Of a stretch of DNA of 64,000 nucleotides, positions 18,557 to 53,606 are shown piece after piece. The position numbers were made by a program, and so were the translations under genes. Where the stretch lies: NCBI GenBank assembly GCA_051294905.1, contig CM119372.1, forward strand, positions 7,628,001-7,692,000, written 5' to 3'. Numbering within the stretch: position 1 is the first letter of the stretch; each line of letters opens with the position of its first letter. Under the pieces are notes generated by a model that did no database searches, was not told where the DNA came from, and was given only the letters and a program-made list of their open reading frames with translations. This DNA is from Botryllus schlosseri. Lineage: Eukaryota.

Positions 18557-21500
18557 ATGTTCAAGGGAAAGACAGCAGTAGTAACTGGGGCTTCTAGTGG
18601 CATTGGCCGAGCGATCGCGCTGCATTTTGCCAGTGAAGGAGCATCTCTGTTGGTCACCGGGAGAAACGAAGATAGGCTTGCGGACGTTGCATCGGAATGC
18701 ACGGACAAGGGCGCGGCCGAGGTAAAACGCTCTATTGATAGAGTTGCTCTGTTGTTTGTGGTGTTCATGGTATTTGAAGACTCCTATGGTCAAGGTCACT
18801 TGAGTTGCTCTGTGAAGTAATGTTGGTGAACTTTAGGGAAACATTACTTCCTCCTCCATGCCCAATTGCCCATATTGCATATGTAATCATCCGCATATTG
18901 CACTGCGTATTTGCGGAGTGAACAGATTTATGTAATGATAGTTTATCTTATGAAGGTTTGTTTCAGGTCGTGCAAGTTATCGCTGATCTCTCGAAAACTG
19001 AAGATGTCGGAAAGCTTGGAAAAACTGCCCTGGAAGCTTTCAGTGAAATTGATATTCTTGTGAATAACGCAGGTTCCGCCGTCGTGTGTACTTTCCAAGA
19101 GGTAATTTGAATAGGTGCTATTCCTGAACTGAGTATACTGCAAGTTTAGTAGTTCGCATGCAGTGCACTGTGCAGTGTGCAATCACGCTAAGCGAGGTAC
19201 TTATATTTAGACAACAGTTGAAGAATTCGAAAGAATCTTGAATGTTAACGCACGTGCCCCATTTCTACTGTGTCAAGTCATGCTTCCTGCACTAGAAAAG
19301 TCTGAAGGTACGGGTCCGAGGGCATATCTTCTAGTCTTGGAAGCCTACTGAATCAATTTTTTTTCAGGCTGCATCGTCAACGTATCCAGTCTTACTGCAT
19401 CGCAGATATTTCCCAAGGGACTAGCGTACGGCATGAGCAAGGCGGCTTTAAATCACTTTACTGAAGCTCTGGCGTTTGGTAAACAATCCATCTTGCTTGT
19501 ACTTAACAAACTTCGGAAGGGTGTGATCATGACGAAGGCTAAAACCCCGTTTGAATTTCAGCTGTTTATTATTTTTGAAGTAACACAAGATTCGCAATCA
19601 TAGCGAATGTGATAAAGCAGCTAGCAAGAAGGCGACACGGGCAGACAAGAGTCGCGCTTGTCAATATTGATTAGTGAAGTCTGAAATTGAAACATTGACC
19701 TCGGCACGTGAAAATTTAGATCCAGATTCCAAAACTGTCGCTACCGCTTAATATCACATGAGCCTTGAGTCTCCCTTTTGCGGTATCTCCTTCCCTCTGA
19801 CCCTGTAATTGCCTTTGTAATGCTATACATCGGACTATAACCCATACCAGTGGTTCTCGGGCGTTTTAATTGACGGTCCTATGTCAATTTTTTTCAACAT
19901 ATCGGATCAACTACTTTCCTTTCCAATTGGAGTGCATTTTATAACAGCTTTGGTAGGGCTTACTCCGTGCGATGGCGGATACTTCTTGTTCTATATGTCA
20001 TGAATTTCGCATAGGACACTGGTTTAGGTGAAAATTAACCTTCCAGGCTGAATTAACGTTATGATATATTCTACCTTGCTCTACAAAAGAGCTCAAATGA
20101 TCGGAAGACTCGTGCCGCACATTTTTCAACATATGTCTAGTCGCGGGCAGAAAGCGTCGGATATTCTAGTAAATATTTATCATGGCTGCGGCTATGTTCA
20201 ACATCTTGATGTTTCGACAGAGTGTTCGAAAAAAGGTGTGCGGGTGAACGGCGTCAGGTGAATATATAAGTCTTCTCGCTAATTCTTATTTGCCACAAAT
20301 GGTTGTACATGTTTTCCAGTCCAGGAACAGTGAAAACAAGACAGCTCGCTGGGGAGGGCGGCGAGAACAAGTTATCTCAAGAGGAAGTCGATGCGGTAAT
20401 TGGTTTTTCTTTCAACTGTCTTTCTATTGTCATTATTGTATGTCTACGACTGGTCTGAGCGTACGCCAATAGGACCGTGATGATTCTGATCCCAAGATTT
20501 GTAATCCAATCTAGCAGATTGAGGAGAGCCTGTCATAGGCTACATCGGTGCTTTTACATCTGTGGGATGGTACACACTTGTCGAGGTGAAAATCATATAA
20601 TTGTTACTTTTTTCTGACGTGGAATATTTCAAATGAACTTGATAGGAATTTCAAGTGCAGTGGCTCCCCAACCTTTGTTGCTGTGGCGATATCGTACCCC
20701 AACTTCTGTCGCCGTGGCGCAATCGTAATTGTAATTGTCTCGCCCCAGCTCTGGTGAACTATTTGCGCACTATCAAAAGTACGGCTCGAAAGCGAGTGTA
20801 GTGGAAGGCATACAGTATGCATCGTCATGTCGTAACCAGTGGCACGCGGGAAATGACGTCGAATTAACTCCTGCTTTCTTTCTCCGAACAATCATCATAT
20901 TTTCGTAACAACGGCTCGATTAGCACGGGGCGCAAGGCAGTAGCAATACATACCATCATTACTGACTCGCATTCTGCGAGCAAGCATTTTTCACTCGTGG
21001 AAAACCCGCTGTATTTTAAAAAACAGTGCTGGGTGGTTCTCGAAGACCTGACAAACCAAGCACTAGACCAGGGGGTCTTGAAGGTGGGCCACAGGAGTAA
21101 TTTGAGGTGGGCCACAGAGCTATTTGGAAAATTGAAAAAATAGTGGAAGTTCAGTTACATTTTCATATTCATATATTCGTAAATATTTATTCATATTATC
21201 GAATTATACGTATAGGCTAAACTTGAAACTTTTCATCCGACTCTGATGAGATGTATACAGTGGCACGTATGGAGTCGCAATGTGCAAATCGAAAATGGGA
21301 GGGGAAAGGCGGGGCTGTTGTTCCCCGCCTATGACAACCTGCGTCCGACAGCAACGACAATAATTTCGATTATATAATAACTGGAAGTTAATGCTGAAGT
21401 AACCAAGGATTCCCGCAGTGACATTCGTCGTATGCCCTTGAAATGGTACTCTGACTGAAATGTAGCTACTTGATGTAGATCTATGGTAGGCCCAATTCGT

Positions 21501-32242: not shown

Positions 32243-35200
32243 CTACATGTGGCCTCGCAGCAACTCGTTGACGTCGATGCACGACTCGAATTGGTCCGGC
32301 ATCTCGTCGTAGTCCATGCTCGGGTTTACGTCGTTATGGGGGAAATTGCTGTTACTACCGGCCTCGGACGCTCTGTAACGGAGTGCAACGTGTTTTGTCT
32401 GGTGCGTCATCACGGCGGGCGCGCGTTTCGGTATATCGATTTAGTCGCCGGGAAAGTGAAAAAACGAAATAAAACCATGCTAGGCGCGAGAACTCGGAAA
32501 ACCGCGAATTTAATGCGGACGTGTTCAAAGTACCCTTCGTTGGTACTCGGGTAGAATCAGAGACTACCGAACAAGCAGAAGATTAAGTATTACGGACGTA
32601 GTTTTGCCTAGAAAACTGACAAGAAGTGGGTCTACTATTATTATTGTCCAGTAAGCACCGAAGTAGGCTAAACTACTGAGAGTATACGCACCATGTTACT
32701 GACAACCTCATGTAAATGCTTAACTATTTCTGTGAGAAAGCAGGGCTTTTGAAGAAGAACTTGTAGTCCGAAAAGGTGAGTAAGGCGTAAGCGAATCGAG
32801 AATTCACCTAGAAGCCATGCTCTATAAACAGGCCTATATCGAACTTATTGCTGCGAGCTGCTGCTAAGACTGGCGGCATTTGCAACAATAGTTTTATGTG
32901 AGATTAGCTTGTTATTTTCTATAAGTGCAAGGCAATTTGATCTGACCGTGTCGGAAATTCAGTACTGGCGTACTTTTGTTTCCTAAGCAAACATCCAAAC
33001 AGCAATGTCAATAACGGATCGTTAACGTTGCGAGGTTAGTAGTGTTACGAGAGCCAGTGTTATGTCTCTACGACGTACAGGCAGCATTTCACATGATATC
33101 GAGAATGCACGGGGCGTGTCGGCTGGCATCAAGGCTTACACATTGCAACGCGGAAGATTTTCTCAAATCCCTACATTGGGTTCAGAATTACAAGTGAAGT
33201 CTTCCCAGCTATAATATTCTCAAAGTGCCACAATGGGTTAGGATCAGAGTCCGGTTTATGGGTGTGGGATGGGTTTTTCTGGTCTTTAGTTTCTCAATCC
33301 ATCACATTGGGCTGGGAGTGGGTTCAAGTTTCCAAGATATAGGACAATATTTCAGTTTATTATTTGCTTAATGCATCACATTGGGTTGAGATCGGCTTCA
33401 GGCTTCAAGACAGGAAAAGTTATTCCGTTTACATTTTGTCCGGATATAATTTTCTCGAGGCACTGCAGCAAGTTTAGGATCCGGGTCTAGTGAAAGGGAA
33501 GTACCGCCAGAAAAAGAGTATGCGCGTGCCATCGGACTCGTACACGACAGCAATCGACCGTCATAAGCGACAAGTCAAATTAAACAAAGCATGCATGCAT
33601 TACTAGTAAGGCTCACCCGTCGCAAAATAAGAAGGCGGGCGGCGATCCGCTGGACGAGCGTGTAAGTATGCGGCAACAGTCAACGCATGCACATATGATT
33701 CCATGCAAAACAAAAAGGCAACGAGACGCAATTTAGTTTGCGAAATTGCAGCCCGATTATAACAAAACGTAGCGAGCGAGTCCAACTTAACAGAAAAACG
33801 AATGCATAGTCGAATGAAAATACTCACACGTCAAACGGAATCGGATTCCCAGAGTGCGAATTTGAAGGGGGCGGAGAATTGTGAGGCAGTATCGACGCTT
33901 CGTAGGTGCTTTGCGGCGTGCTGGGGGCGCTGTTATCGCTGAAAAAGCTTCCGAACTGGCTTCTGAACGCGACAAGTATGATGTTTGACGAGTGCTACGA
34001 CGCGATAAGTGTGCGCCGGAAATACTCACCCGGGATTCGACATTGACGGTATCTTCTGTATGAGATGTGTCTTGACATAGCCGTCTTGGGCTTGAACTGA
34101 AAAGAGATGCGTACACGATGTTCTTACGCCGGCAGATTTAGACAACGAAATTATTCTAGTTGCCTAAATAATGCGAAATGTCGGTAATCTTATCTACTCT
34201 AATTCGTGAAATGTCGCTATGTTGTAATTCTAATCTAATTTCGGGTAGGCCTATTCCTGGAAATTCTCCACGACGACTGTATACTGCAAAATGAGCCAAT
34301 CTCGGCACAGACCGTGGTAGACATTTGCCATTCTCGTGCTTATCGGGCATGAACTCTGATTTGATACGAACTGAACTTAATGTATGTTGAGTTCATTTGC
34401 GATTAAAATTTAATTCAGTAATCCTAATTCTAGCCCAATTGGGAATAAACTGTGTCTCGCTATAATTCTAATTCCAATTTTATTTGGAAAAGTAAAAAAT
34501 TTTCGAGCAGTCCAACTCTGTACGGCGGCGCCTTGAATGGATTTCAGCGCCAAAACGGTGCATGCACTGCATCCGTTATGTAGGCACAGAATTATCGGCA
34601 CTTGCATTTTCCCATGTTCCAAACCAAGTCTGCAACATCACTACCGATAAAACACTAGGGCTGGGGATGGAGATTCTCGAGTGGTTGCCCGACATATGAG
34701 CATGCGACACAATGGAAAACGACAGTTCAACATGGGACACTTCAGCATGTGACTTCATAGTCTAAAAGCTTTCCCTAACCCGAAACATAGCCCTGAAATT
34801 AACCCTTACATATATCCTAACCCCAAGCCTAACGCTAACCCAACCATATATCCAGCCCTAACCCACCCCTAACCTGTAATTTAACCCACATGCTCATACG
34901 TCCGCGGACCGATTCGAGTACCAATTTCCTATATATGTGTCGGAGTGGTGAAAGTCTATGATTTCAAGTACGTTCCTCATTATTTATTGATGGAAATTGT
35001 CGTTGCGGTATCGTATTGCCACTGTGAGAGCCTTAAACCCTCAACACGAGATGGCACATCACCCAATACATGCAGTAGTGAGCTACCAAGTTCATGGCAA
35101 CGAATTGAATCGTTATTACATGCTACTATCCTAATTTCAAGCAATTCATATAAGTAATTGTAGCTGGCGTTATTGACTTCGTGAACGCATATTAAGTATG

Positions 35201-38200
35201 TATTTGGCCGCTTTTAGTCGTTACGGTTGATGCATCATAATGCGGTAATGCGGGGTGCTGGAATACTCAAAGCTTCATAATTGATTCGTATCCAATATTT
35301 CACTGCGTCGGCCTTATTTATTAATCAGAAAAGCCAGGCTGCTGTCCACACTGACACTGAACAGGCCGCGAAAAACACGTCGAGACGGCAGACTCACTCG
35401 AACTGCTGTCCGACTTGTTATAGTATTGTCCGAAAGCCTCGTCTTTCATCTTTGTCGTGTCGTCTATCTTGCAGAGGTACATGAGCTGGTCCAGGTCCTT
35501 GATACGGTCGGGCAGCGAACGAATCGAATAGTCTCGCAGCGTTTGCGGCTGTAAATTCCAGACCTTCGCCACCCCTGCAAACATCATGGTCGTTTCCAGT
35601 TTAGACGACAATGTTTCACGACCGCTGCCGACTCGTTCTGGTTGACACCGGTTGTTATGATCCAGCAACAAAATATACATAATCAGATCTACGATACGGC
35701 GAAATCACACATTTGACAACAATATTTCACGGCTGTCAGCGAGTCTCGCAATTCTTCCTAATTGACGCCGATTGGTTCAACCCGTCTACGAATGGGGCAA
35801 CAAAATTTGCACATTCGAATCTACGTTATGTCAAGAATGCAGACTTGATGACGCGATATACAAAGATATCGTTTGCTGTTCAATCGACACCGACACAAAC
35901 GCATCAAAGTGGACACTAGGGTGGTCTAACAAACGAATTTTGTAAAGTTGTAGGTCTGACCCTGCCTAAATGCTCCTGTGACTGTTGTTTCTGCCTGTCT
36001 CACAGAGAACGAGGTGCGGCTGTAGATTGCATTTGGAGTTGTTGCTGACCTCCGCAAAATGTACCGTAAGACCCTGAAGCAGACCAAAATTATTATATTG
36101 GTCATCATAACACCCCAGCCAATGATCAGCTAACAACCAGACGAGGGAACCCAGGCTTTCGAGCATTGGCCCAATAGCAACTATTGAAGTGAGTATATGT
36201 GTTCTATACCTAATATTAGGGTTACCGGGTACCATATTTTGGAAATCTGAAAAGAGGACACTTTTTCAAAATTCCGAGTCTTGTAATACCGGAGGTAAAT
36301 CCTGAATTTTTTTTTCATATTTCGTGGTCGGCTGACCACAAAAAAAGAGAAACTTTCCAGCTCAACTCCCAAAATACGGTTTTTCTTTCACATAATCCGT
36401 TGGTTGACTGAAAAAAAGCTGCCGAAACAGCCGCCAAAGCGTTACTTCAGTGCCAATTTCGTGCATCTCATTCGAATTTCGCCCTATATTTGAGCGAAAT
36501 TCTCAAAAAAGAGGACAAATCCTCTTAAAAGAGGACGTATGGTAGCCCTACCTAATATGGGTAGAAATTCGGATTCATTGAGCGCTGAGCCCCCTGTAAA
36601 CATTAGTGAATAGGAATAAAATTGACACAGGATGTATTTTAACCAAAAGGAACATTCCAGCAGGATCAGACCAACGACTTTCCAAAATTCGTTTTCAAGG
36701 AACGCACTATCAAGATACTGAAGAATGTTTGATCGCATCAATCAAAACATACCATGATCCTCGGCGACCCAGGCGATGGTGAGACCGCCTATCTCGGAGT
36801 CGGAATATCGCAGGAGAAAGGTTCTGTTTGGCTTCGACAAGAGTTTATCCTGCGATTCGGCCTTACCGATAAATCCGATGATCGCTCTGAGAATCAAGAG
36901 TTGACCTGAGATTTTGAAACCAGACGAAGTCATACCGATCTCGGAGAGACGATTGATGGGATCGGTACCAGCTGGCAGACAAAAACACCCCAGATGAAAA
37001 TGAAAACGTGTGTATTACGGCTGTTCAAAAATAACTATTTTTTTCATATTTTTAGACTGCTTGATAAACTCCAATTCCAATTCCAAAACTGTAGAAGCGT
37101 AACTATAAGAGTAGTAGATTTTGGATATAAAAAAATGGTAATTACGGTGGGATATTCTATCATCAAGAATTATGGAATTACCTAGTGTAAATACTGTTTT
37201 TTTAAATTCCAAAATTTGCTACTATAACTTCGCTTTTATGGGTTGGAAATGCGCCAAATTTGTTACGTATCGTTTTTTAGACAAATTGACAATTTCTATT
37301 CGCTAGCAATTCTTGGAAATTTGTTTTTATTTTATCTAACAAATCTGAAATTTTCTACTCTCATAGTTAAGCTTCCGCAGGTTAGAATTGAACCTAATTT
37401 GATGTGCAGCGTTATTTTCGCCAACCTAACAATTTCATCAAACAGATAGACAAATTTGAATATAAGTTATTTTTAACAGTCCTAGTGTATATAAACAGTG
37501 GAGGCCTACCAGAGGTGGTCAAAGTAGTCAAGAAAGCTACTCAAGTAGAAGTAGAAGTAGCGACGAAAAAATCTACTCAAGTACAAGTAGAAGTACTTCT
37601 TCCATAAGCAACCTAAAACTACTTGAAGTAGAAGTAGAATTTACTGACTTGTACAGTACTCAAGTAAGTAAGTAGTGGTGAAAACGATCCTAATTCGTTC
37701 ACATTGATTGTAAAAAGGTGCAAATTGAGTTATGCGAAAGTTGTATAGGATACGGTGTGAACACTTTGCGTGATTAGTAAACGTTAATAAAAAATATGGT
37801 GGACCGTAAAAATGCCATATTGTGTAGCTTTATTGCCGGAAATTAAAGGCATTACTACACTTGCTTTTATAATTCAACATGTATGTTATCCAGACAAAAG
37901 AACTCATATTAATTAAAACTCAAAATATATGATACTGGGAATTAAAAGTGAAATATAAATACTACTTCTAAAAGTGGAGCATGTATTTCATGCCTTTAGT
38001 CCAGAAAGTTTTAAATGTGGTGTGCTAAAACAGCTCTAAAACTAAAAAAAAGTCAGAGTCCACATTTTCAGATTAGTACACGCCATGGACATGCTAGATT
38101 ACGATATGACAAGTAAATGCTAGATTACGAAACATCAGTTTCAAACGTTATGATGAGCCATATATACTGTGATGAATTATTTCATATGGGCGACAATGTG

Positions 38201-41200
38201 GTGTAAACGGAGCCACGCCAACCCGCGACCTAAATTATATTCACCGATACTTTCGTGAAATCATACTGGTCCCTCCGTATCCACTGCGCGAAGCTTTACT
38301 CAACTTTTGTAAAAATTAAATGTTGATACTCCGTGAAAACAGCCCCGAAATTTCTCAGGCTATCTTCCGGATTGGAAGATTGAACTACTTCTACTTGACA
38401 AACTGAAAATAGCGAAAAGTAAGCAAGTAGATCACAAAATATTACGAAATAGAGGTAGCGAAAATCAGATCTACTTGAGTAAGTACCAGAAGTAGAGGAA
38501 AACTACTCGAGTACTTTGAAAAAGTAGAAGTACTTCGTTACTGACCACCTCTGAGGCCTACACCCTTTTCGGTTTAATTGGGTGAAATAACGTACCCGTC
38601 ATTCCAGTGAACTTGAAGGTGTTTGCTTTTCGTAAGCTCCATCACGCCGTTAAACCACTGCCAAAATGTGAAGTTCCTCTTTGGTAGCGTTTCCCTGTTG
38701 AACTGCGCCCACGAAATGTTCTTCTCGGAATTTGGCATTACGGGTTGTTCTGCGGTACACAACGAGTAATTTCCCTTGGATCATCGCAAGACTTGGAATA
38801 GCGCAACGCGAGTATGAGCCACATAGTGAAAAGGATTCAAAATAGCCTTCATTCCTTTTCTATATATCGACTTGAGAGTATAATGCACAGTGGAAATTGA
38901 ATATTGAAGTTCTGTACCTCCAAGTTGGAAATTGAAAATTAAATAGGAAATGCAGTGTAGTAGTGTACCGCAGACAACGTCACGCTTGTCCTTAAGATAT
39001 TGTAAACATGACAGCAGAGGTGTCAACATTCAAATCGAAATACACGCAGGTTCTATTGGTTAAATACTAGTCAGAACTTGAGATTACCAGACCGCAATCT
39101 GATATATTGATGTCGCTTTTCGTTTTGTCTTTATGTTATATTCTAGTACTTTTCATTCAATGTGGAATGTGCATGCCTCCGCTTTACTGCGTCTATGCCA
39201 GGGTGGATGTCTGATTAAAAGACTTCTCCGACTTCTTTCGCCACCTTCCTATCTTTTCACTGTATAGCAATCTTGTGGTGTATTGATTGGATAAAATTAA
39301 TAACAAACTGAAGTGAAGGTGGTCAGTGACCAAGTACTTCTACTTTCTCGGAGTACGCAAGCAAGTTTTGCCTAGTTGACTCGTTTTTGGATTTTGTGAG
39401 GTAGAAAGTATTTTTGGACTATGTTTACATCTCTTTATGAGTGAAATTGTCATATGAACTTGGCAAAACAGCACTGTGTCGCAGTAACTACACATATTTT
39501 CGAAAATTGCGGCTCACGGCTTCTATCTCTAATTGAGTACCAGAGCTGACTACTGCAATCCCCTCTGCATGACTGCGTCATACACTACATATCTAAAATG
39601 TTGACCCGCATTTTGCCATGCTTCCATAGAGCGAGATACTCACTAAAAATTTTGTAGGCAAGATACTGTTTCGCTTGTGAAGTCAGTCCCCGGTCACTTC
39701 TGGTTTCGTGCTTCCATTTATGGTCGAGGGCCTCGATCAATTTCGCCCACGGTACTTTGTCCGGCACTTGAAACGGTATCCGCCCCTGACACAAAAGCGA
39801 CAGTGATTATGGAGACCAACCCGCTATCGCAACATTCTCAAAGCGCCAAAGTACACTGAAAGCCATCAAAAAAGTGCGTCATCTTTCCTTACAGATAGTA
39901 TCATAATAACGGATAACCTCTGTCGCCCGTGGTGCTATTTGGATGAAGTACAAAGAAAGAGAATCACTCTGACCAAAATTACAATACATTAAGGTGGACG
40001 ACTCAAGAATAACCTTGCAAAGTCTATCATTACATTGTCATTTGTGGCAAGTTGATCGTGACAGGGACAAAATACAAAATTACAGTGACCAACTCGTAAG
40101 ATATACTAAATCACTAGCGATATCGCGGCGTCAAGCTCGACGTCATACTAATGCGTAGTTTTCAACAACCCAAATACATTATCGTGATTGAGCATGCGGA
40201 CTTGAAACAAAATTACAAGGACGGCTCACACATTGAATTAGTTAACGCTCCTCAATTCCACCTGAACGTAAGTGAAATTCATAATTGACTGGTTCAGATT
40301 CGCAAAGGCTATAATTACACCATTTCAATGTCATGCAAGTAATCATAATTTTCTTCAGATTTGCCACGAGTTAACGCCACAAAATTACCCGTAACGATCG
40401 ACAAACATTTAAAATTGAGTTAGCAACCCCCGGCTATCAGTGAGAGGCTGCAAATTATAGCGTGTTTCCGTTTCCATGCCGGTACCTCGTTGGCAAAAGC
40501 ATTATCCCACAAGATGGTCGCTTTGGCATTGCATTCCTGGCTGACATTAACAATCGCAACAATGGGCAACGATATGGCCATAGGCTGAATGCAAAGAGAA
40601 ATAGCCGTTAGCACGATCTCGATGTGTTTACCTGTTCGGCAAATGCGTTGTCCCACAGTATACTGGCGGCTGCGTTCGCTTCTTGATTACCATGGACAAT
40701 CACGACCACAGGAAGAGATAAAGTCTGGTAGAAACACACGACAAAAACCTTTAGTTACGTAGGTGAAATGATGTCAGACAGAGTCCTTGGAATTGTTTAA
40801 TAAACAAAATTGGCATTACATTTTCGGCAGTCACAAGACCACACTTGAGCCTGGCTTCAGGCAAAATCGCTACCACTTTCGGTAGTAATCCGTAATTCCA
40901 ATAACAGCGTAGCTTGATTAACCATTCAACCGAGAATAGATCGAGCATTAATGTCTCGCCGCCTTGTCGTTCAATTACAATAGGGTACGTAGTTTCCTCA
41001 AGATATTACACTCGTGTTATATTGCTTCCTGCGAGCCATGAAAATATGGCAACTTCCTGCCTCAAAATGAACGCGCACGCGCCAGATCAAGCCTCTTACA
41101 AATCCGTATTTAATTAGGTACTATAAGCTAATCTGTATCGTGTAGGATTGAACAGTGTCTTCAACAACATGTAACTATGGACGAATGGTACCAACTCTAT

Positions 41201-44200
41201 CATCAAAGTAAAATGGTAGGATCAAGTTGTGATGTCATTCCTCGAGCACTTGAGAAGCCACTCGATATCAGGACGTTCTACAACAATGATTCTGTTATCA
41301 ACTGGTATCATTTAAGATGACATAATCAAACGGTCCTACTTGAAATTCACTCGGAAATTCAGAAATAAACGTAGGCCGATCGAGGCGCATTGTCAAAGAA
41401 TTGTTATTTACTATGACTCCTGACATTTGAAGTCTACGCATTCTACGCACGCACAATTGCAGATAACTAATGAGGTATCAAATCCATCCCGTCCAAGTCT
41501 TGACAAGGAAAAGGAAACAATCAGTATCTTGCGCATCAAACATATTGTTGATGGGACGCTACCAGTAGACTCGGTAAATGTATCTACTACAAGTGGTGTT
41601 CAATTCTACAATGCACAATCTCAAAACAAAACATTAACACCGGATTCCGTTATATCCGGTTGAAATTTAGATATAAAACGCGGTGGCAGCTAAAAATAAC
41701 AGTTGCATCCACCGGTTTGTCTTGGACAGGGCCTTACAAAATGATTAATACTGAGCGATTTGCGCAAATATTACCCAACAAACGTTTCAATTATCAACGC
41801 CCGAATGAGATGCACCGTTAAAAATAACACCAAGATAAACTTAATACGAATATCTTAATTTAGTTCGAAAAATTCCAGATACATAGTTTCCACATTCATT
41901 CATCCTTGGTTTCGTTCCGAAATTTAATATTACTAAATCCGCCACAGAGAAGCATGCTGTTATCAAACGTGAATATCTATAAATAACGCACATCATCATA
42001 AGGTACATCACAATGGCCCCACGGTGGAAATACATAATTTATTATTCCAAGGAATACCAATGGGAGCAGTTGGATGAGACTATCACACAATAGTAGACCG
42101 CTTTGGGAAAACAGTAGGCATTTACTGTAAAAGCGCCAACGTATGTCTACACTTGGACATCTGTTCTCGGCAAAACACAAATAAGCAGTAGTAATAACCT
42201 AAATAAACACCCCAGTGCGAAGATTCTGCTATTTCCTGTTTTGTAGAAGAGAAAATGATGAGACATTACGAATACTGAACAAATATAACTATAAACTATG
42301 CCCAGCGTGTTATGTTATTTGTGTGTAGGATTGTTATAAGTGTAGTTTCCATGAACTACCTGCATCATTGACTTGTTAATCATAGAGAAGCGCAGGAAAC
42401 TAATGTGACATTACGAATACCCAAAAATAGAACTACAAACTATGCATAGTCAGCCGAGTTACTTGTGTGCAGCATTGTTACAAGAATCGTTTTTCGTACT
42501 ACCTACCGATGTACAATAGCCAGAAACTATGTATCACAATGCATCACGACACGATTACCGACAATAGGAGAGCGCACCGAAACTTGTTCCCTTCATCCTT
42601 GGGTGAGGTTAAAGCCAGCGGCATAGTTAATAGATTTCGAGAGAAGAAAAACAATTTTCATGCAAAACCGAGACCCCGCGAGCCGCGATTACCTGCCAAT
42701 GAGCGTCTCATTGACAGCGTAGATCTAACACTGCGGCATTCAACGGGAAGCACACATCCTAAACAATACCGAGAATTCTTTATGGCAGCGTCCAATTACC
42801 GCGCTAAGACGAGGTTAGCATTCGCGTTGTAATTGTGGCACTAATCAAGCTCACCCGAACTTGAAACACCAGTTCGTTACCGCCCACGCTGAACTGCGAT
42901 TGAAACAAGACGGTGAACTTCTCTTCCGTCACCGACTCGGCGCCGCGCTTGTCGGAACGTTTTATCCTCCGCAGAGACTGCAACAGAACACGACGTAACA
43001 CACGCCGAAAGTCATTTCCTGAACATTAGCGCGACATACCATGTTCCTGAAATTGACGCTTAGAACGCCCGACTGGGGATGGTACTCCATCACGCTTTCG
43101 CGGTTCAGAATTTCGCCGCTCATTTCGCTCAGGCTGGAATTGTGAGGATCGGGATGTAAAGCAATGCACGCCATAATGGCTAGGGTTCAAAGTAGCAAGC
43201 CTATCGTAGACTGAAAACAAACATGCATTCATTCACATTTTATAAACAACATGGGGGCCGAAACGGTTCGTAGAGGTCACCGGCCAGCAGAAGAATAGTG
43301 GGTGCATTATGCAGGGTTGCCATTGGTATGGATAAAATACCAAGGCCAGACAAAAGTTCTCAAATGGTTAAATGTGAAATATGTAAACTGATCACAAAAT
43401 TAAAAATAGGTCAACTCCTTGGTTCAGCCAGTCCTAATATTATGCGTTCTCGGCCATTTTGCCGGGCTGATGGTTAAAATAGTTCATACTTTAGTACTTT
43501 TACGACCTCAGTGTCAACAATGAGGACAAATCTTGGAAGTGAGGACAATGTAGTTTTACAAGATATCTTCCTTCGAAATGAGGACGGTATGACATGACAA
43601 CCCTGGTGATAAGTTTGTGTTCTTGCCACGCAAAGCGTTTCTACAATGTCCACTGTTGTAAGATGACAAACTACAACACTTCTCAATATAGCACCATTGT
43701 ACGATTAGTAGTTCACAGCAGATCCTACTGACAAGCAGAAACTACTAAGGGAAAGCCATCGTTTATTTACTGCAGCCAGCACAACATAACCGGACCAATA
43801 GGATTTTGAGAAAGTGACAGGTTATGACCGTGTTACGACTGATATCTATTAGTCTACTCTACTAACACAGAATAGTCAGTGCAGTTGTCTGGCACTGGCG
43901 AAAACAAGAGTTAAGTTTCAGTATCGAAGATACTCGCACTGCTTACATATCGTCAGGTACACGGCTATTTATCATATAGATCAATGGATGGCAACTATGC
44001 GATTCCGACACATCCTTTATACCAAAGTCACAAACCGTCAACTTTATATCATAAATTTAGGAACATCTAACAGGAATAGTATTATGTCTTATAGTAAGAA
44101 TCCTGGTTATTACTCTCGTGGAAATTACCACAAAATCATGTCGGAAAGCGGCGTTTCTTACGAGCATTAGCACACGTATCAATAATTTATTCATAGAACA

Positions 44201-47200
44201 ATTAATAATGGGAAATGGTGCCGTGCAACATGAATCTTCGACGCATTCTAGCAATTGGAACGCAATTGCTGAATTGATGGCTACAGACCAAGGATCGCAA
44301 TATAATATCCAGTTCCATCAAAGAACACACAGAGGCATAGCAACCTTTGCAATAGCAGACTTGGCATTACTTCGGTATTCAAAATGCAGAAAAATACATA
44401 TTTGCTGAAGTCTACAAAGCCAATACCAACGTACAGCGACTTCTACTGTCCTAGGGGTGCTGATTTTAAAATAATGATGTAAATGCACAGAATGCTCCAC
44501 TAAAGAAAAACACTGACAGCCAAGGTCATAACAGCATAATAAGCCGCAGAGTGGTATACAGACAAATTAGAACGAGTTGACCTGCACCATTTAATAGAAA
44601 ACAGCTCATAAAGTACTATTCCTGTGGTACCGACATGATTGCACAGCAGGGGTGTGCATGCGTAGATTGTATGACATCGAGAACAGATGCCTATCTAATA
44701 ACCAGCCCAGTGGTTCTCAACCCTTTTGCCCTCATGGACCGTGATCCTTCAACAATCAAAATGAATCCCAATTTTCATTACGACCGATGCACGATACTCA
44801 AATGTATATTGTGATTTGTGAACTTCAGTTCTGTGCCCCCTTTTGCTAGCTCTTATTACACGACCTCCAACTTGATCGTGATTGTCCGGTAAAAGAAATG
44901 CGATGCATCTCGCTATAGAACTCCATCGTAGTGCTAGTGTCGTTTAATTGCACTGTCGGAATTTAACGAAGTTTGTTCAGAAGTCTCCGCAGTTTCCACA
45001 TATAAATTGTTCGAAAAGAGTCGTAGCCTACATTGAAACAGTTGCACCATTGTTACATACGCCCAAACTAGACTATAAACCCTCTAGTACGACATAACGT
45101 AGAAAATACATTGGCAGCTTATCAATCAATTTATAATTTGATGTTTCATTCCACTAATTAATGAAAAAGCGTCAGTCTTTTCGCATTTTGGAACTGAGAT
45201 ATAAAATTCTAGTACAGTTAGTCGACGGATAGGAAACTTGACACGGGCTGGCTGTTGAGAACCACTGAACCAACCTGTTTTTGAGCCAATTGCTAACTGA
45301 GCCTTTTTAAATATCAAGATCGTAAAGTCGTAGTAACGTTCCACCATTACAAATGAACTTCAAGAAGTACAAGACATCAGTGCAAGTCGCAGAGTCAGAT
45401 AATTGCGCAGGTGTATCATTTAGCATAAGAATGCGAACAACCCCGTTCCACAGTATAATAAGACTACACCGGCATGTTGAAAGCAGCAAATCCAGAGTTA
45501 ATTAAAAGCAACCAACCTCCTGCTTTCATTTTTTAATAATGCTTTGGCTTGCGCCTCGCTGATGATGCTGGCTTTTACCGTAGGCGGATTCATATGTATA
45601 TTGAGTTTGCCTCCCACCAGTAACCTGATGGTAGCTCCGAAACGTGTCTGCGTCTTCAGAACTTGCGGCGGCTGCTTCTCGATTATAAAAGTGCTAAACA
45701 AACACACGCAATCAATGACCTAATTCAATCCGCATTATGTTAACACGTCGTCGCGGCCTAGGGTACTTACACCGATTTGGCCTACTTCAAACCAATAAGA
45801 TACATGAAAATACGCCAGAAAATGACACCAGGAAATAGCCATGAAACAATCGACAGAATTTAGAGAGGCAAATGCATTCCTTACATAAGACAGACTATAA
45901 GCGATCAGCCGCATCACACTTGTTGGGATTTAGACATCGACGGTCGTCCATCCTTGACGGAAAATATCAAACAGTGACATCGACTGCAATTGGTAGTGGT
46001 AGCTTATATATTTTTCTTTGCTGATGGAATCATGGGTCATTGTATTGTGCCAACAACTTTAGTTGAGATAATTGGTAAAATGGTGCTAACTGTAGCACCA
46101 TAACTAATACCACTACCCAAAACAAAAACAGAAGATTATGGCAACGGCGGTGTCAACAGTTCACAAAACAATGCTGTTGACAAGCCAGCAACGGTACCAA
46201 CACATAGGCAGCTGAATGATACTTTTACGACGGATTGGTCCATTTCTACCCCAAAGCCGAGAATCGCTACCGAGATAAAACTACACAAGATCTCGACAAA
46301 ATTCACAGCACATGCCGTTATAAAAGCGATTATACATTAACCATCCAATTATTCGGATATTTCACCTCCACCCCACCTTCCACAGTAGACCTTCGAGAAT
46401 CGCCAATTTCAACTTTACACACTACTAATCATCTCTTAAGTATAGCTCACAGGGCAGATTTCAATTTCGACCAGGGAGTACCCTCACACATATTTATACA
46501 AAGGTCATGGAATCATTTAGTATCACTGAGCTACGATCAATCAGTATTCCATGATCGACAATAAAGGGGCACTGCACTATAAAAGCGATGTGGTCTCAAA
46601 TTGAAGGGTAAAACGAAAAAAAATATTTTGCCACAGCCATTTTCTTGAGAACACCACCGTCCAGCAGTCACACAGAGATCAAACTTTATAGTTGTTAGCC
46701 GAAGTTGTGAAGGAAATATGTCGTGCACGCCAAGGTGGTTTAGATACCGCGTTTAACGGAAGATGTTCAGTCAGGAGATTTATGTCAAAATCAGGCCTAG
46801 TGTATTCTATTTCTTTACGACAGAAATAGATCATGTCCTATTGTTATGTATAAAACACTGTTAGACATGATTTATTTCTGTCTTGAAGAAATAGAATACA
46901 CTATGCCCAATTTTGACATAGATCTCCTGATTGAACATCTTCCTTTGAATGCGGTATCTAAACCCCCTTGGCGCGCACCACATATTTCCTTCATAACATC
47001 GGCTAACAACTATATAACGTTTGATCTCTTCGTGACTGCTGGAGCGTGAAGTTTTTGTGGAAATTTCAATAAGTTACAGCTCGTTACGGTGGCGTTTTTT
47101 CCGTTTTGCCCTTCAATTTGAGACCAGGTCATTCTTAGAGTGCAGTGCCCCTTCAAGACACGGCCAAAAGAAAAGCTATCAGAACACCAGACTGGTCGTG

Positions 47201-50200
47201 TATGTCATGGAATTTTTAGCTGAGAATCCGAAGGGGACGAAAAAAATAATGACTGAACGTTCAAGTATATGGCTATGACGTTATCGCGCAGATCACCGGT
47301 ACCAATGTAATATTTCAGCAAGGCAGACACTATGACGCGCCTACATAGATTACGTCAAGGGCAACAGCACCATTCGAATAAAACCATCCGCACCTCGTGA
47401 CTAGAGTGGACAATAAAGCCGTGATAGTGGAATTCAATTCCGGAAGTAGATCCCGACCCGGATTGTTGATCGGTAGCTGTTGCCGTTGCAGTTCGACCTT
47501 CTTAATTTGCTGACGGTTCTGCCAGATGATTTCGGCTAGTCTTTCACACCTGCAAAACCAACAACGTCCTGTCGACGGCATATTTTGTACTCGCTCGCTG
47601 GCTTTCACACCCGACCGATCATCTCAAAATCGCAGTGAATTATACGTCACACTGGCGACATGATCAATGTCGTGGAACGTGCCAAAACAAGCTTGATACA
47701 CACACAACCTGTTACAGCCAGCGAGCTATACTCAATTTAATCATAGCTTGTCAAATTGTTTGAGCCAAGTCTACTCTACAAATCTACATAACGTTCATAT
47801 TATGCAGAGAGTTGACACATAACAGGCAAACCAAGTACGATTATTGAAGACAGCACTATGTAAACAGTCTTTGGTACCTACTAAAATAACTGAAAACAAA
47901 CAAAAGCATACACAACATCTCCTACGTAACGCCATACCATTGTTGCAGCTGATCAAGATTGTTTTCGTGCTGGACGCCATTGTAGGCGAGCGCCTGGGCC
48001 CGTTTCCACTGGATTAGTTCCTCCTCTAAAATTTGACTCTGAAGTTGCGACAGCAAAGAGAACGTTTCCTGATGCTTATCGGCAACACCCTGAATAAACA
48101 AGGGAATAAAACCACGTGAAACCACAGACGGAACAAGTCATGTATAATTTGTGGCTCGACCAGATAAGAAAAAACAAAGTATAACCCACGAAATGCAGTA
48201 TCCGTTCATCATTAGCTCGAGACTTGACATCAGCCAAAACGAAGACACAGCGGACCAATATTTAACCAACATACCTTCACTAAATTCAGATTAACCATAA
48301 CCATCAACTTAGTTGACCCTGCATGTTTCCACCACAGGAATTAGCACTTTCGACAACACAGAAGACATCACCACGCGCTCTACGCTCTATTTTCGATCGT
48401 AAAGAGACCACCTCGCCTAATCCAAGGCCACAGAATAACTCGGTAAACATACCATTCTCAGCTGAAGAAGTTTCTGCGCTTCCAACCTCAAGAGCGAGTC
48501 CACGTCGTGTTGTTTTCGGATTAGTTTCTGTTCCGCTTGGATTCTGTCTGGGTCGCTGGGGAGGAGCTGTTGCACCTGCTGCAAATGCGCTGCAAACAAA
48601 AAAACGCTGCTGTAGGGAGTTGTTATCAGATTCGAAACCATAGCTTGTCAACGACAATGGCCTCAAGGTGTATTTTTGACAGGAGTATTTAATGCAGCAG
48701 CCTGCACGTGCTGATTTTGCAATCAGTAGAATAGTGGGGATTACATACCTGAACTGGGATATTATTATGAAAGACAAGTACAAAATCAAAATCTGTACGG
48801 TAGTTCTAAATCAAACTGTGCTGTGCAATTCCACCGAAATCCTATTGGACCATATTACTAAAACCATATCACAGAATTCGAATCAGTACTTATCAAACTG
48901 TAGCGTGTAATTCGACAAAAAACATATTTGACCATATTACAAAATCCGAATCTGCAGTTGTCAATAAACTGTGCTGTGCAATTCGGCCAAAAACAAACCA
49001 ACAACACTATTCAAGCGACATTGGAAGCAGCAAAATGCATATAGATCAATTCATGTTTCTGCCTCTTATCCATTAGCCTCAAAATGACACGGCAGCACAT
49101 AGGCTACTAACAAAAGTTCCAGTTTATTGAAAATGAGAACAGACAGGATAGAAGGACATATGCTTCTACTTAACTATCATATTACAGAAGAAATCTAGGT
49201 AGTTATATTTATATACTAAATTATATAATATTGCATACGTGGGCCTGGTTGATTTAGTCTCCAAATAAAGGAGTTTGTATACATCTAAACTCCATGTTGC
49301 AATATTTAAAGTTGTGCAAGTCCAAATGAAAACTTAACTTTGAGTTCCTATCATCAAAATCCAGCTCTTTCAGCAAACTGACATGAACAAACGGGAAAAA
49401 AACATGTCTTATACATTTTTCAGATCAGATCATTTCAATGTGGTGACAACGACCTTCAGTAGTATATTCATTTCAAATTCAAGACTACATCACACATGTT
49501 AAAGAACACTATGCATGCAACACTCCTGCAACACACCCAGATGAAAAATCTGCACGCATCTAGTTCTTCAAAATTCCATAATACTAAACACTAAACAATA
49601 ATTAATCTCAGCTTCGCAAACAAAGTTCGGTATTTGCCCACCCGATTACCACGGATATCCAGGAGAAAATACCATCTCAACTCAAACACGTCATGTTGTC
49701 AAACAGAACTGGCAAATCAGAGAATAGTGGACTTCATGGAACCCATCGCAGGCAACAATCTTACCTCACTGGCAAAATACCGCAAGTTCAATTGAACATT
49801 ATCTCAATAACAATATCAACATCAGCAGAACATTAATACGCCATTAAAATTTTCTTCAAGAACCACTTTTTGCCAGAAACTGATTACAATTACAAACAGT
49901 GAGTCAGACATGTTGATAGCAATCGGCCTTGCCACAAAATCATATCAACGAGATCGTAGTTGCGGCAAGGTAAAAAACTTTGAATTTTAGAATGATTATA
50001 CCCAGCTTTGGTGCAGCTGGACAATATTGGCATATTGCTTTATCAAAATTCTTCAACTCAATATTTTAGGTATATATATTGTATTGAACTCATCAGAGGA
50101 CCTCATAATAACCTCCATGGCAATTATCAGCAATAACTTACTCCGAAATGAAAGTACTTCAAGCGACAAAATGTTAACAGCCCAGACCCCATTTATCAGA

Positions 50201-53200
50201 GCTAGGATAGACAAAGCCTCGCAATAATTGGCACAACGGAATCGTCATTACATTACAGGTACTATATTTCATGAGAAAAGCCTTTTTAACTTGGGACGCG
50301 CCATAACTGTTGGCAAAGGGTGCTGTGCGTTAGAGAGGCCTACACAAAAATAGCAAAATTGGCATGGACAACTGCAGTACACATTACCAAGCATAAGGAA
50401 ACGCCCATGTCACAAGTCTATTTATTTCCGACTTGGATACATACCAGTCTAATATTTGACAAGTGATCGACGTAACGTATCTGCACGCATCACTAGAGAC
50501 ACACTATCACAAAATAACTTAGTCGCATGCCAACGAGAATGTAATGTCGATAAATGACAATGCTATACTGTATCCATAGCCTAATGGAATAGATATTTCT
50601 GTCACCCGTCACACATTTCCACAAATATTGAATGTTAGCACAGAGCTTGTCAGATAACACAAAATGACAACCCTGTTTCTGTGCAAAACAATCAGAAAAT
50701 AGTCAATGGAGAAGCCCCAAGAATTCATACACACTTATATTTCCAAGTAAAACGCACACCCGCGAACAATCATACTTATATCCATATACTTACAACTGAT
50801 TTTAAGACTCTCTTGATAGTGAATAACGAAATATTCCTGTTTAGATTGTAGTTTCCTGAGGTCATTGTCGGTGTCACGAGTCATGTTTGCCAGTGTTTCG
50901 AGCTCCTGGTTTATCCGAAGCACCTTCTCGGTATGTTGCGAGAGATGCGTCAACGCACCGCCGTCTCCTAGCTGTTAAAACACACCGAGCGTTTGCACAG
51001 AGTGCATGAAAAACAACACAAAAGCTGCATCACTTACCGAGTTTGATTGATTGACAAAACTGGACTCAGTTGCTAAAATCTTTTTGGCGGTTCTGACCAA
51101 TTCCAATGGAGCTGGACCGTAAATATTCTGCAATGATGGAATATCGGGCTAAATTATAATTGCCGGTAACGGAATCTCAGACGTATGCTCATAGAGTCAA
51201 ACCGAAATGGCAATATGTATGCAGAATAACAAACCCGTCTCAAGTTATCATTTGCAGGGAAACTGAACTATGAATCATCATAACAGGATAGATTGACAGA
51301 TTTTATTTCATGTTACCGGAATATCAATAAAGCTCCAGTATGCACCGACGCAGGTGCCACCTGCACAAGTTCCCAGCGGCAATATTTGGCAAGAGGATAC
51401 AATAAATGTATAAACCATAAAGGTAGGTAACTGGAGTAAAAAATATTTGATAGAAATCTCTTTTACCATAGGATATCATCTCCGGCACGGAATTAGTGAA
51501 CCAATGCACTCAAAAATAGAACTACATCAGCGGAGAACACTGGTGTTCGAATCAACGCTAAATCATTATACCTAACTGCTTACACTTGAAGACAGATTAG
51601 CGCAAATCACAAATTACATGCAATGCGCCATCCAGCTGTTCATTATGATATCTGTTTTGATAAATTAGATTTAAAAAGTCATCGGGTTTCACCCTTCCAT
51701 TAATCTTCATATAGGTAACTGCACTGCAGACTTGATTTACGACGTCCCAGATAAAATATTTACAAAGCGCACCTTGAAATGGTTAGCGATCTCACTGAAA
51801 CGCAGTCTTTGAAGGAAATCCCGCGCCTCTGTGAGACTGTCGCATTGTCTTTCAATATCGGTCAAGAAGGTGTCCAAAATATGCCTCGCGTGAAGTTCAT
51901 CGTTGATATTATCCGGGTCTAATTGATCCCTGGTGGAAAAAGATAAGTCTTGGTGATCGAGTGGTGGGGAGCCAAAAAAGACATTGCACAGACCATCGCC
52001 TGCTTTCAATGAGATCGGCGAAATAATGACGGAATTCAATAGGAAAATTCGGACCGTACAGGTTCTGAAGTTGTTGCAATGCATCTCCTTCCAACTCCCG
52101 TACTTGGGCCCACAACGACATCCCAGAGCCTTGATTGTGGTCTAAAAAGCAGGAACAGGATGAAGCGGCAATTACAAACTGTAGTGTATAGCCTACATTT
52201 ATTAAGATATTGAAATTGCACATCTTGGAGGGGTCACGTCATGGTGATGCATATTTTATCAGCATAGACAGAGTTATCGAATTACCAACTATGGACCCTA
52301 CTCGCGATGATTTAGTTTATTGTAATTCCCCACAATGTATGTGGGTGCATGTTCAATATAACTGATAAAAAGTTGTGCTGATTGTGCAGAAGAATGGCAA
52401 ATCGCAAGTAGCGAGAAAAGATTTTGTCAAAAGACTCATGAGCATGAATATTGCTAAAATAGTTGAGCATATGCCTGTATTTATATTTTGACTGTATCTT
52501 AGCCTGATTTAAATTTCGTTGAAATGCCCAAGACCAAGCTAAAACTAAAACTAAAAAGCTAATCAAAAAAGTTACGATTATAAAATTTCAACTCAATAGC
52601 AATAACACCATTGAAAGAGTGATTAGATGTAGCCCATGAAACGGACGACTAGGAGATCCCCTATCTAGACTAAACCCCAAGGCACAATTTAATGAGAAGA
52701 ACCATAATCGGAATTGTGAAAAGAAAACCAAGGAAGTCAATAAGTATGAAATTGTAATAAAAATGTGATCGAAAATCACAAAAATTAGTAATACAAAGTT
52801 GTAAATAAATTACTAGAATCCTAGATCTGTTTTAGAAAATAAGAAAGGTTTGCGATTTTGTAAATCAAAACCAAGTGGGCTAACACTACACAGTTCTAAT
52901 TATCAACTCAAGCATAAAATCTTTTTGACCTTAAAATTGTGCTTGGTGTTAATTGCTTCATGCATGGGTGGACACCTCTTCCTGGGTAAATATTTCAATC
53001 CAACAAAAACCACCATTCCTCAACAAATTTTATAGTGCATTTCTATTGTATTATGTATTTTCTCAACTTGCTTCTCAGACGCTAGACGCTACACAAAGAT
53101 TACAAAGATGAAAGACTAATAATAATATACATACATACAGGGGTATGGTCGATACAGCTACTGTTATACACACATTAATGATGCCATACAAAGAATCAAT

Positions 53201-53606
53201 AACAAGCATTGTTATATAACATATAATTGTGGAAAAAAGAGACCAATTGCCATACGTTAGGAAGTAGGCCTACTTTGATATAAAAAGGATTATCCATAAT
53301 AAAGTTGCATAACAAAATAGCCTACTTGGAAGCCACCAGAGCGCAGAAAACTGATTACAGGCAGAATTTGACATGCACATTAACATAATAATGCAAATTG
53401 TGTGCGAGCTTATTGCAAATAGCGACAAGGAATGAAACCACATGACGTAATTCACAAAGTAAAAAAATTAACCTTAACGTCATCATCAACATTCCACATC
53501 CATGAAATTTTCGAACCGAATCTACCATAAAGAAAATACACACTTTACCTATCCCGGCCGGTTCCATCTTGATATTAGACATGCCATTTGGCCCATTTCG
53601 CTGCAT
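32243..53606 (-). CDS. STAT5-like: STAT transcription factor, STAT5-type, ~833 aa, 19 coding exons with one mutually exclusive pair
   Basis: Exons (minus): 53606-53549, 52141-51994, 51929-51773, 51127-51038, 50971-50794, 48589-48453, 48089-47938, 47549-47394, 45693-45517, 43133-43040, 42977-42855, [40724-40632 or 40584-40486], 39785-39644, 38749-38596, 36886-36753, 35574-35398, 34096-34030, 33962-33828, 32372-32243. All are GT-AG with consistent phases. Motifs: MSLWAQ...[14 protein letters not shown] (N-domain), [19 protein letters not shown] and [11 protein letters not shown] (DBD), FTFWQWF (linker), [13 protein letters not shown] (SH2), DGYVK (phosphotyrosine), DVNELLR (STAT5-like tail). 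Confidence 0.95.
34683..34910 (+). mobile_element. MITE with telomere-like internal repeats (degenerate copy)
   Basis: Same family as 56241-56536 (GGTTGCCCGACATATGAGCATGCGAC...CGGACC). It contains CCCTAACC-like repeats. Confidence 0.7.
36217..36550 (-). mobile_element. TAGGGTTACC-family hAT MITE (inverted)
   Basis: Reverse-complement homolog of 9365-9680, with exact TSD CCTAATAT (36209-36216, 36551-36558). Confidence 0.85.
37016..37484. mobile_element. AT-rich MITE related to 57866-58484
   Basis: TACGGCTGTTCAAAAATAAC / GTTATTTTTAACAGTCCTA termini with near-TSD GTGTGTAT/GTGTATAT. Confidence 0.6.
37510..38553 (+). mobile_element. AAGTA-repeat hAT MITE in a STAT intron
   Basis: TIR CAGAGGTGGTCA / TGACCACCTCTG, exact TSD AGGCCTAC (37502-37509, 38554-38561) and AGTAG/TACT subterminal arrays. 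Confidence 0.88.
40486..40584 (-). CDS. STAT5-like: STAT DBD exon variant B (STAT1-type NVSQ): [33 protein letters not shown]
   Basis: 99 nt, phase 0/0, acceptor tttctctttgcattcag preceded by a ctaac branch motif, donor gtaccg. It is an open paralog of variant A with 19/31 aligned residues identical. Confidence 0.82.
40632..40724 (-). CDS. STAT5-like: STAT DBD exon variant A (STAT5/6-type): [31 protein letters not shown]
   Basis: 93 nt, phase 0/0, acceptor tttctaccag, donor gtaaac. It matches the STAT5 segment [28 protein letters not shown]. Confidence 0.93.
44708..45267 (+). mobile_element. hAT MITE in a STAT intron
   Basis: CAGTGGTTCTCAAC / GTTGAGAACCACTG with TSD AACCAGCC/AACCAACC. Confidence 0.78.

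What the first reader, a model, noticed from the sequence alone, without database searches (positions are those of the whole stretch)
40585..40631. 47-nt inter-exon spacer that would enforce mutual exclusivity sterically
Seen: the sequence between exon A's donor and exon B's acceptor is gtaaacacatcgagatcgtgctaacggctatttctctttgcattcag (47 nt), with a ctaac branch motif whose A is only ~24 nt from the donor. The other short introns I mapped here are 60-66 nt (19308-19367, 20258-20319, 42978-43039, 8298-8361, 51930-51993, 50972-51037). Both exons are multiples of 3, so NMD could not remove an A+B product. Established: a donor too close to the next branch point blocks joining of tandem exons, as in alpha-tropomyosin exons 2/3. 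Inference: this geometry forces an either/or choice.
Basis: partly seen in the sequence, partly recalled or inferred. Interest (0 to 1): 0.72.

Follow-up and report, generated by a model that had tools for sequence, protein, structure and literature searches.

The report
Either-or DNA-contact exons in sea-squirt STAT
A sea-squirt STAT transcription-factor gene carries two alternative versions of the exon that touches DNA, one resembling human STAT5/6 and one carrying the STAT1/3-type contact residue, set so close together that the cell probably cannot splice both in, which may let one gene make two factors with different DNA preferences.

Summary
The 47-nt spacer is real (minus strand, 40631-40585). 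It separates two homologous in-frame exons (A 93 nt, B 99 nt) of an ascidian STAT-b (STAT5/6-type) gene. A encodes His, B encodes Asn, at the one base-contacting position (STAT6 H415 / STAT1 N460). The pair is conserved: Ciona and Clavelina records hold A-only and B-only isoforms, Phallusia a B isoform; 0 of 24 tunicate proteins hold both. The spacer is shorter than all 140 introns mapped in this genome (shortest 53, mode 59), so a steric block is plausible. But the margin is 6 nt, the mammalian 50-nt rule does not apply here, and the spacer is 53 and 84 nt in two other tunicates. RNA here showed only A spliced (2 of 4 runs; the 2 raw runs barely covered it), so neither B use nor absence of A+B is shown in this species. 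The steric mechanism is a known kind. The interesting part is the conserved His/Asn exon switch in STAT, which I did not find in six literature searches; its effect on DNA binding is untested. The scan noted this exon pair before only on this same window.

The parts
32243..53606 (-). STAT-b gene (STAT5/6-type), 19 coding exons with the A or B choice, 18 introns
   Evidence: tblastn and spliced alignment with Styela clava protein P0003; closest named proteins are ascidian STAT5B-like/STAT-b
42855..42977 (-). constitutive exon upstream of the pair (end of the DNA-binding domain), phase-0 donor
   Evidence: RNA contigs X1, X4 join 42855 to 40724
40632..40724 (-). exon A, 93 nt, 31 aa, His form (HGNQ); His codon 40694-40692 aligns to STAT1 N460 / STAT6 H415
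   Evidence: spliced in contigs of 2 of 4 runs laid; aligns to STAT1 chain 1yvl 450-477; protein identical in Styela, Ciona, Clavelina and L012
40585..40631 (-). 47-nt spacer between the donor of A and the acceptor of B; retention puts a stop 7 codons after A
   Evidence: shorter than all 140 mapped introns
40607..40611 (-). candidate branch motif of exon B (branch A at 40608, +24 from the donor of A); predicted, not mapped
   Evidence: only YTRAY in the spacer
40486..40584 (-). exon B, 99 nt, 33 aa, Asn form (NVSQ); Asn codon 40548-40546 aligns to STAT1 N460
   Evidence: 1yvl 451-477; orthologous 33-aa exon in Ciona, Clavelina and Phallusia proteins; pN 0.17 against pS 0.77 versus L012; not seen spliced in this species
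39786..40485 (-). 700-nt intron downstream of B with three GCAUG motifs (one UGCAUG), possible Rbfox-type sites; weak and post hoc
   Evidence: 3 GCATG here and 3 in L012 against 0.59 expected per 700 nt
39644..39785 (-). constitutive exon downstream of the pair (start of the STAT linker domain)
   Evidence: RNA contigs join 40632 to 39785; PF21354 match

Best explanation
An old tandem duplication of the exon that carries STAT's base-contacting residue made a mutually exclusive pair in ascidian STAT-b. A (His, STAT5/6-like) is the default; B (Asn, as in STAT1/3) is a minor or cell-restricted alternative. In this species double inclusion is prevented mainly by geometry: the 47-nt spacer is below the intron floor of about 53 nt and B's branch point sits about 24 nt from A's donor, so U1 and U2 cannot assemble productively across it, and retention of the spacer makes a stop. 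Which exon is chosen must be set by other factors. Shown: anatomy, conservation, A splicing, intron floor in a sample. Inferred: B splicing in this species, the branch position, the steric cause, and any change in DNA binding.
For: Same-species A-only and B-only isoforms in Ciona intestinalis (4 A, 2 B) and Clavelina (2 A, 2 B), a B form in Phallusia, 0 of 24 tunicate proteins with both. B is under purifying selection (pN 0.17, pS 0.77 against L012). A-B order and a short spacer are kept in L012/L014 (53 nt) and P0181 (84 nt) while the flanking introns are 650-2100 nt. Shortest of 122 myosin introns 53 nt, 49 of 122 at 53-69 nt; shortest of 18 STAT introns 62 nt. The aligner does find 37-46-nt introns where they exist (L016). 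Precedent: five C. elegans clusters of 3n exons with too-short intervening introns (PMC4165533).
Against: B junctions were seen in 0 of 4 runs (2 contig runs show A only; the raw runs laid 13 and 5 reads), and all 4 Styela clava records are A. The margin to the shortest mapped intron is only 6 nt, from about 53 short introns; 565 of 687 candidate introns were dropped as weakly supported, 11 of them 43-52 nt long, each found by at most 2 of the queries. Predicted donor-to-branch distance is 24 or less in 3 of 49 ordinary short introns. The 53- and 84-nt spacers would be spliceable by this genome's yardstick.
Confidence: 0.6

Rival explanations
1. The pair is mutually exclusive, but the lock is mainly regulatory or branch-position based (a repressor of B or activators downstream of B; a branch point held near A's donor whatever the spacer length, as in OGDH 4a/4b). 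The 47 nt is then a by-product of deletion drift in an intron that is never spliced.
For: Spacer 53 and 84 nt in other tunicates. In the 84-nt spacer a Leu-Thr codon pair forces a YTNAC with its A at +25 from the donor (my reading of the P0181 translation), like +24 here and +26 to +29 in L012. GCAUG motifs downstream of B in both species. OGDH precedent (PMC7969005).
Against: Here the spacer is below all 140 mapped introns. No conserved intronic block between window and L012 above shuffles, and no unusual fold (z 0.28). The 84-nt spacer has other possible branch motifs further downstream.
Confidence: 0.27
2. B is functional in other ascidians but silent or nearly silent in this lineage, so there is nothing to exclude and A is in effect constitutive.
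For: Only A spliced in the runs laid; only A in 4 of 4 Styela records; B here differs from A-like consensus at two positions kept in other B exons.
Against: Intact frame, GT/AG ends and branch motif; pN far below pS; an unnamed relative's ORF is 94% identical to B (P0182); contigs drop rare variants and the raw runs barely covered the gene.
Confidence: 0.08
3. The 47-nt spacer is an ordinary very short intron that is sometimes removed, giving tandem cassette exons with some A+B product.
For: Canonical ends and a good branch motif at the usual distance from the acceptor; a related tunicate group splices 37-46-nt introns (L016); one sea-urchin record joins that lineage's two exon copies (P0176).
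Against: 0 of 24 tunicate proteins with both; no intron under 53 nt among 140; a doubled strand-helix segment in the DNA-binding core is unlikely to fold (inference).
Confidence: 0.05

Closest known systems
C. elegans mutually exclusive clusters with too-short intervening introns (egl-15 5B/5A, let-2 9/10, bet-2, gly-5, gly-6; PMC4165533, passages read)
   Same: Homologous tandem exons of 3n length, not guarded by NMD, separated by an intron under the species' minimum.
   Different: Those spacers are under 40 nt against a floor of about 40; here 47 against about 53, a thin margin, and the spacer exceeds that floor in a relative.
alpha-tropomyosin exons 2/3 and OGDH exons 4a/4b (PMC6692369, PMC7969005, passages read; the original tropomyosin paper not read)
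   Same: Branch point of the downstream exon close to the upstream donor (25-41 nt in human OGDH; about 24 nt predicted here).
   Different: Those use distant branch points inside longer introns against a vertebrate threshold of about 50 nt; here the branch point is at the normal distance from the acceptor and the whole intron is short.
FOXP1 exons 18/18b (PMC11701043, passages read) and TCF3 E12/E47 (search listing only)
   Same: Mutually exclusive exons swap residues in a transcription factor's DNA-binding domain.
   Different: A change of binding preference is shown for FOXP1; here it is untested, and the gene family is STAT.
Vertebrate STAT5/STAT6 (His) versus STAT1/STAT3 (Asn) (PMC5737217 passages, PMC5359187 main text)
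   Same: A and B reproduce the two states of the single base-contacting residue.
   Different: Vertebrates keep the two states in separate genes; here they are splice choices of one gene, and B is otherwise STAT5/6-like (32 bits against 16 for STAT1/3).

Membership tests
Homologous mutually exclusive exon pair | Tandem homologous exons of like length and phase | tested here: met
   61% protein identity, 93 and 99 nt, phase 0
Homologous mutually exclusive exon pair | Each exon is used alone in transcripts | tested here: inconclusive
   A alone in this species; B alone only in Ciona, Clavelina and Phallusia records
Homologous mutually exclusive exon pair | Double inclusion absent | tested here: inconclusive
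   0 of 24 tunicate proteins; no such joint in 4 runs, but with no power
Homologous mutually exclusive exon pair | Both exons under coding constraint | tested here: met
   A pN 0.01 / pS 0.87; B pN 0.17 / pS 0.77 against L012
Steric exclusion by a too-short intervening intron | Spacer below the species' minimum intron length | tested here: met
   47 nt against a shortest of 53 among 140 mapped introns; a sample, not genome-wide
Steric exclusion by a too-short intervening intron | Lengthening the spacer releases double inclusion | not testable with these tools
   needs a minigene
Tropomyosin/OGDH-type distant-branch exclusion | Branch point far from the acceptor and close to the upstream donor | tested here: not met
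   predicted branch A is 23 nt from the 3' end, the usual distance in this genome; could apply to the 84-nt spacer of P0181, not testable
STAT5/6 subfamily (ascidian STAT-b) | Closest named proteins are STAT-b / STAT5B-like, with full STAT domain set | tested here: met
DNA-specificity switch by alternative exons (FOXP1-type) | Isoforms differ in measured binding preference | not testable with these tools
   STAT6 H415N shifts N4 to N3 preference, but STAT1 N460H had almost no effect in one study and STAT5 (His) prefers N3 (PMC5737217, PMC5359187)

The most novel reading that the evidence does not exclude
The last common ancestor of tunicates and vertebrates had one STAT gene that made both a His (STAT5/6-type) and an Asn (STAT1-4-type) DNA-binding domain by exon choice; gene duplication then fixed one exon in each vertebrate subfamily, and ascidian STAT-b still shows the ancestral switch. 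For: the Asn at the exact contact position, followed by Val-Ser-Gln as I recall in STAT1 (recalled, not from a call), and B scores slightly higher than A on STAT1/3 (about 16 against 14 bits). Against: B is much closer to STAT5/6 overall; no Asn form turned up in lamprey, hemichordate, echinoderm or appendicularian records; convergence is simpler.
Probability: 0.13. Interest if true: 0.85.

Novelty: new member of a known kind. Interest (0 to 1): 0.58.

Why it matters
The His/Asn state of this residue separates the two vertebrate STAT subfamilies, and its role in reading N3 versus N4 sites is disputed (STAT6 H415N switches preference; STAT1 N460H did little in a second study). A natural pair of isoforms that differ only in this 31-33-residue segment, kept across three ascidian groups, is a ready test of what the segment does. 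It also means gene-level expression studies of ascidian STAT-b lump two possibly different factors. Sea urchins duplicated the same exon with a different change (Val to Ser just before the His), which points to repeated tuning of this DNA contact by exon duplication. The steric lock alone would be an ordinary new example.

Tried and rejected
Genome-wide counts of a strong donor and acceptor at set distances (58 matches at 25-39 nt, 49 at 40-54, 147 at 55-69) were uninformative, because the 55-69 excess is mostly one repeat family; not used as evidence. No RNA holder on record was listed; raw runs X23 and X21 laid only 13 and 5 reads. A protein search with exon B plus flank found no candidate. 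RNA structure over A-spacer-B is no better than shuffles, and no conserved intronic block between window and L012 was found, so a docking/selector mechanism has no support. An AlphaFold model of the Styela protein had pLDDT under 50 over the DNA-binding domain and was not used. No Asn-type STAT paralogue was found in this genome: the two C8 genes carry His and the third C8 hit is a single-exon fragment; these searches give lower bounds. The primary STAT6 structure paper was not held.

Full report
What is there. The spacer is as described: 47 nt on the minus strand, 40631-40585, GT to AG. It lies in a STAT gene that runs from about 53606 to 32243. A spliced alignment of the Styela clava protein P0003 gives 18 introns, and its junctions agree with the three RNA joints seen. 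The closest named relatives of a neighbouring exon are ascidian STAT5B-like / STAT-b proteins at 93-97% identity, so the host is an ascidian and the gene is STAT-b. Exon A (40724-40632, 93 nt) and exon B (40584-40486, 99 nt) are 61% identical as protein, both phase 0, and are the only two copies in the window.

What the exons encode. Against STAT1 chain 1yvl, A residues 1-28 match 450-477 and B residues 4-30 match 451-477. So His 11 of A and Asn 13 of B both fall on STAT1 N460. PMC5737217 (passages read) states that this is the only residue that hydrogen-bonds directly to the bases: Asn in STAT1 and STAT3, His in STAT6 (H415). PMC5359187 (main text read) adds that STAT5 also has His. Both exons score far better on STAT5/6 than on STAT1/3 (B: 32 against 16 bits), so B is best read as a duplicate of the STAT5-type exon that carries the Asn state.

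Is B real? In this species RNA shows only A. Contigs of runs X1 and X4 join 42855 to 40724 and 40632 to 39785; raw runs X23 and X21 laid 13 and 5 reads, with a few unspliced X21 reads over B and no joint at B. Evidence for B comes from relatives. Of 24 tunicate proteins aligned, 5 carry a 33-residue B exon in place of A (Ciona intestinalis X1 and X3, Clavelina X1 and X3, Phallusia), 18 carry A, 1 Ciona savignyi model skips both, and none has both. All 4 Styela and all 4 Oikopleura records are A. That the X-numbered records are predicted models, usually read-supported, and that the Phallusia record comes from a transcriptome, is recalled and not from a call. Genomic loci L012 and L014 (one ascidian-like organism, 2 of 70 metagenome loci) show A then B with a 53-nt spacer. 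An unnamed genomic ORF, P0181, reads through A, 28 codons (84 nt) and B. Between the window and L012, B shows pN 0.17 against pS 0.77, so it is kept as coding sequence.

Is 47 nt too short here? I mapped introns by spliced alignment with a minimum allowed length of 25. The 18 STAT introns have a shortest of 62. In 14 myosin-head regions, 122 introns passed the support filter (4 or more of 8-9 queries, flanks at least 42% identical); the shortest is 53, 49 of 122 are 53-69 nt, and the mode is 59. Leaving out the near-duplicate gene C14b gives 110 introns with none under 53. The filter dropped 565 of 687 candidates; 11 of those were 43-52 nt, each found by at most 2 queries. As a positive control the same aligner finds introns of 37-46 nt in appendicularian-like locus L016, where this exon has no flanking introns and no B copy. 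So 47 nt lies under the floor seen in this sample, by 6 nt.

The vertebrate rule of about 50 nt from donor to branch point (PMC6692369, passages) cannot apply to an animal that splices 53-60-nt introns. Predicted donor-to-branch distances in 49 ordinary short introns have a median of 39, and 3 of 49 are 24 or less (predictions only). The closer precedent is C. elegans, where five clusters of 3n exons are kept exclusive by introns under that species' minimum (PMC4165533, passages). The 53-nt spacer equals this genome's shortest introns and the 84-nt one exceeds them, so length is not the universal lock. A branch point held near A's donor could be: +24 here, +26 to +29 in L012, and a forced YTNAC at +25 in P0181 (my reading of its codons; other candidates lie further down). 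That would resemble OGDH 4a/4b (PMC7969005, passages). The point about NMD holds: A+B would be in frame, whereas retention of the spacer gives a stop after 7 codons. Geometry can only forbid A+B; it cannot choose between them. Three GCAUG motifs downstream of B in both species, against 0.59 expected, hint at Rbfox-type control, but this was noticed after the fact.

Function. The likely effect is a change in DNA reading, but the literature cuts both ways. STAT6 H415N moves preference from N4 to N3 sites; STAT1 N460H was reported to raise N4 binding in one study (as summarised in PMC5359187) and to have almost no effect in another (PMC5737217); STAT5 has His and prefers N3. B also changes the residues after the contact and adds two residues at its start. 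I put a measurable change in binding at about even odds.

Beyond ascidians. Strongylocentrotus and Diadema records hold two versions of the same exon, both with His, one with Ser in place of Val just before it, the position of STAT1 S459. Locus L026 shows such a pair 1096 nt apart with the Ser form first. The order, spacer and substitution differ from the ascidian pair, so an independent duplication is the simpler reading. Hemichordate, brittle-star, lamprey and one gastropod record showed one version only. A region search with the Ciona B exon scored only 12 candidates and found no Asn form outside ascidians; that search is narrow.

Novelty. Searches found no paper describing this exon pair. 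Two STAT-evolution papers (PMC3296744, PMC3670131; passages), a Ciona long-read isoform paper (PMC12865960; term search of text and its one held supplement, no STAT hits), a Ciona splicing paper (PMC10573349; term search of text and its one small held supplement) and a Ciona immune-cell preprint (10.1101/2025.05.20.655184; passages; supplements closed) do not mention it in what I saw. PMC7540406 (passages) gave no minimum intron length. The library lacks most subscription journals, and the isoforms already stand in public annotation as unnamed X forms.

Verdict. Observation confirmed; interpretation partly supported. A steric contribution in this species is likely but unproven and is a known kind of mechanism. 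The conserved His/Asn exon choice in ascidian STAT-b is the part worth following. Interest 0.58; new member of a known kind.

Noticed in passing
G000:C5:25264862-25264925 (+) and 25268200-25268263 (-), and dozens of similar places: A dispersed repeat family carries a 62-nt intron-like unit (strong donor, CTAAC near the AG) in inverted pairs 1-3.4 kb apart, probably within the terminal repeats of a DNA transposon; a second family of 56-58 nt occurs in pairs about 5.2 kb apart (C1:3174605 and 3179817). Such ends could let the element be spliced out or seed introns.
   Followed up: no
P0156/P0173, P0157/P0179, P0176; L026:235-327 and 1424-1516: Sea urchins have their own duplicated version of the same STAT exon (Ser or Val before the His), 1096 nt apart in L026.
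   Followed up: partly
G000:C8:24927229-24927318 (+), C8:25054644-25054730 (-), C8:24863366-24863542 (+): Two divergent STAT paralogues share intron positions with STAT-b and carry Ser-His-Gly-Lys at the contact; a third hit is a lone exon fragment.
   Followed up: partly
L016:325-1860: Appendicularian-like STAT gene with 37-46-nt introns, no introns flanking the contact exon and no B exon.
   Followed up: partly
P0191, P0235: Two unnamed STAT fragments have His-Val-Asn-Gln at the contact, a mixed state between the A and B motifs.
   Followed up: no
G000:C8:22962764-22964773 (+), L081/L111: An intronless myosin gene (1008-aa frame) among intron-rich paralogues; possibly a retrocopy.
   Followed up: no
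window 40696-42205: Contigs of runs X1 and X4 cover the 3' part of the intron upstream of exon A at about a tenth of exon depth, with none downstream of A; slow splicing of this intron is one reading, DNA carry-over another.
   Followed up: no
   Followed up: partly
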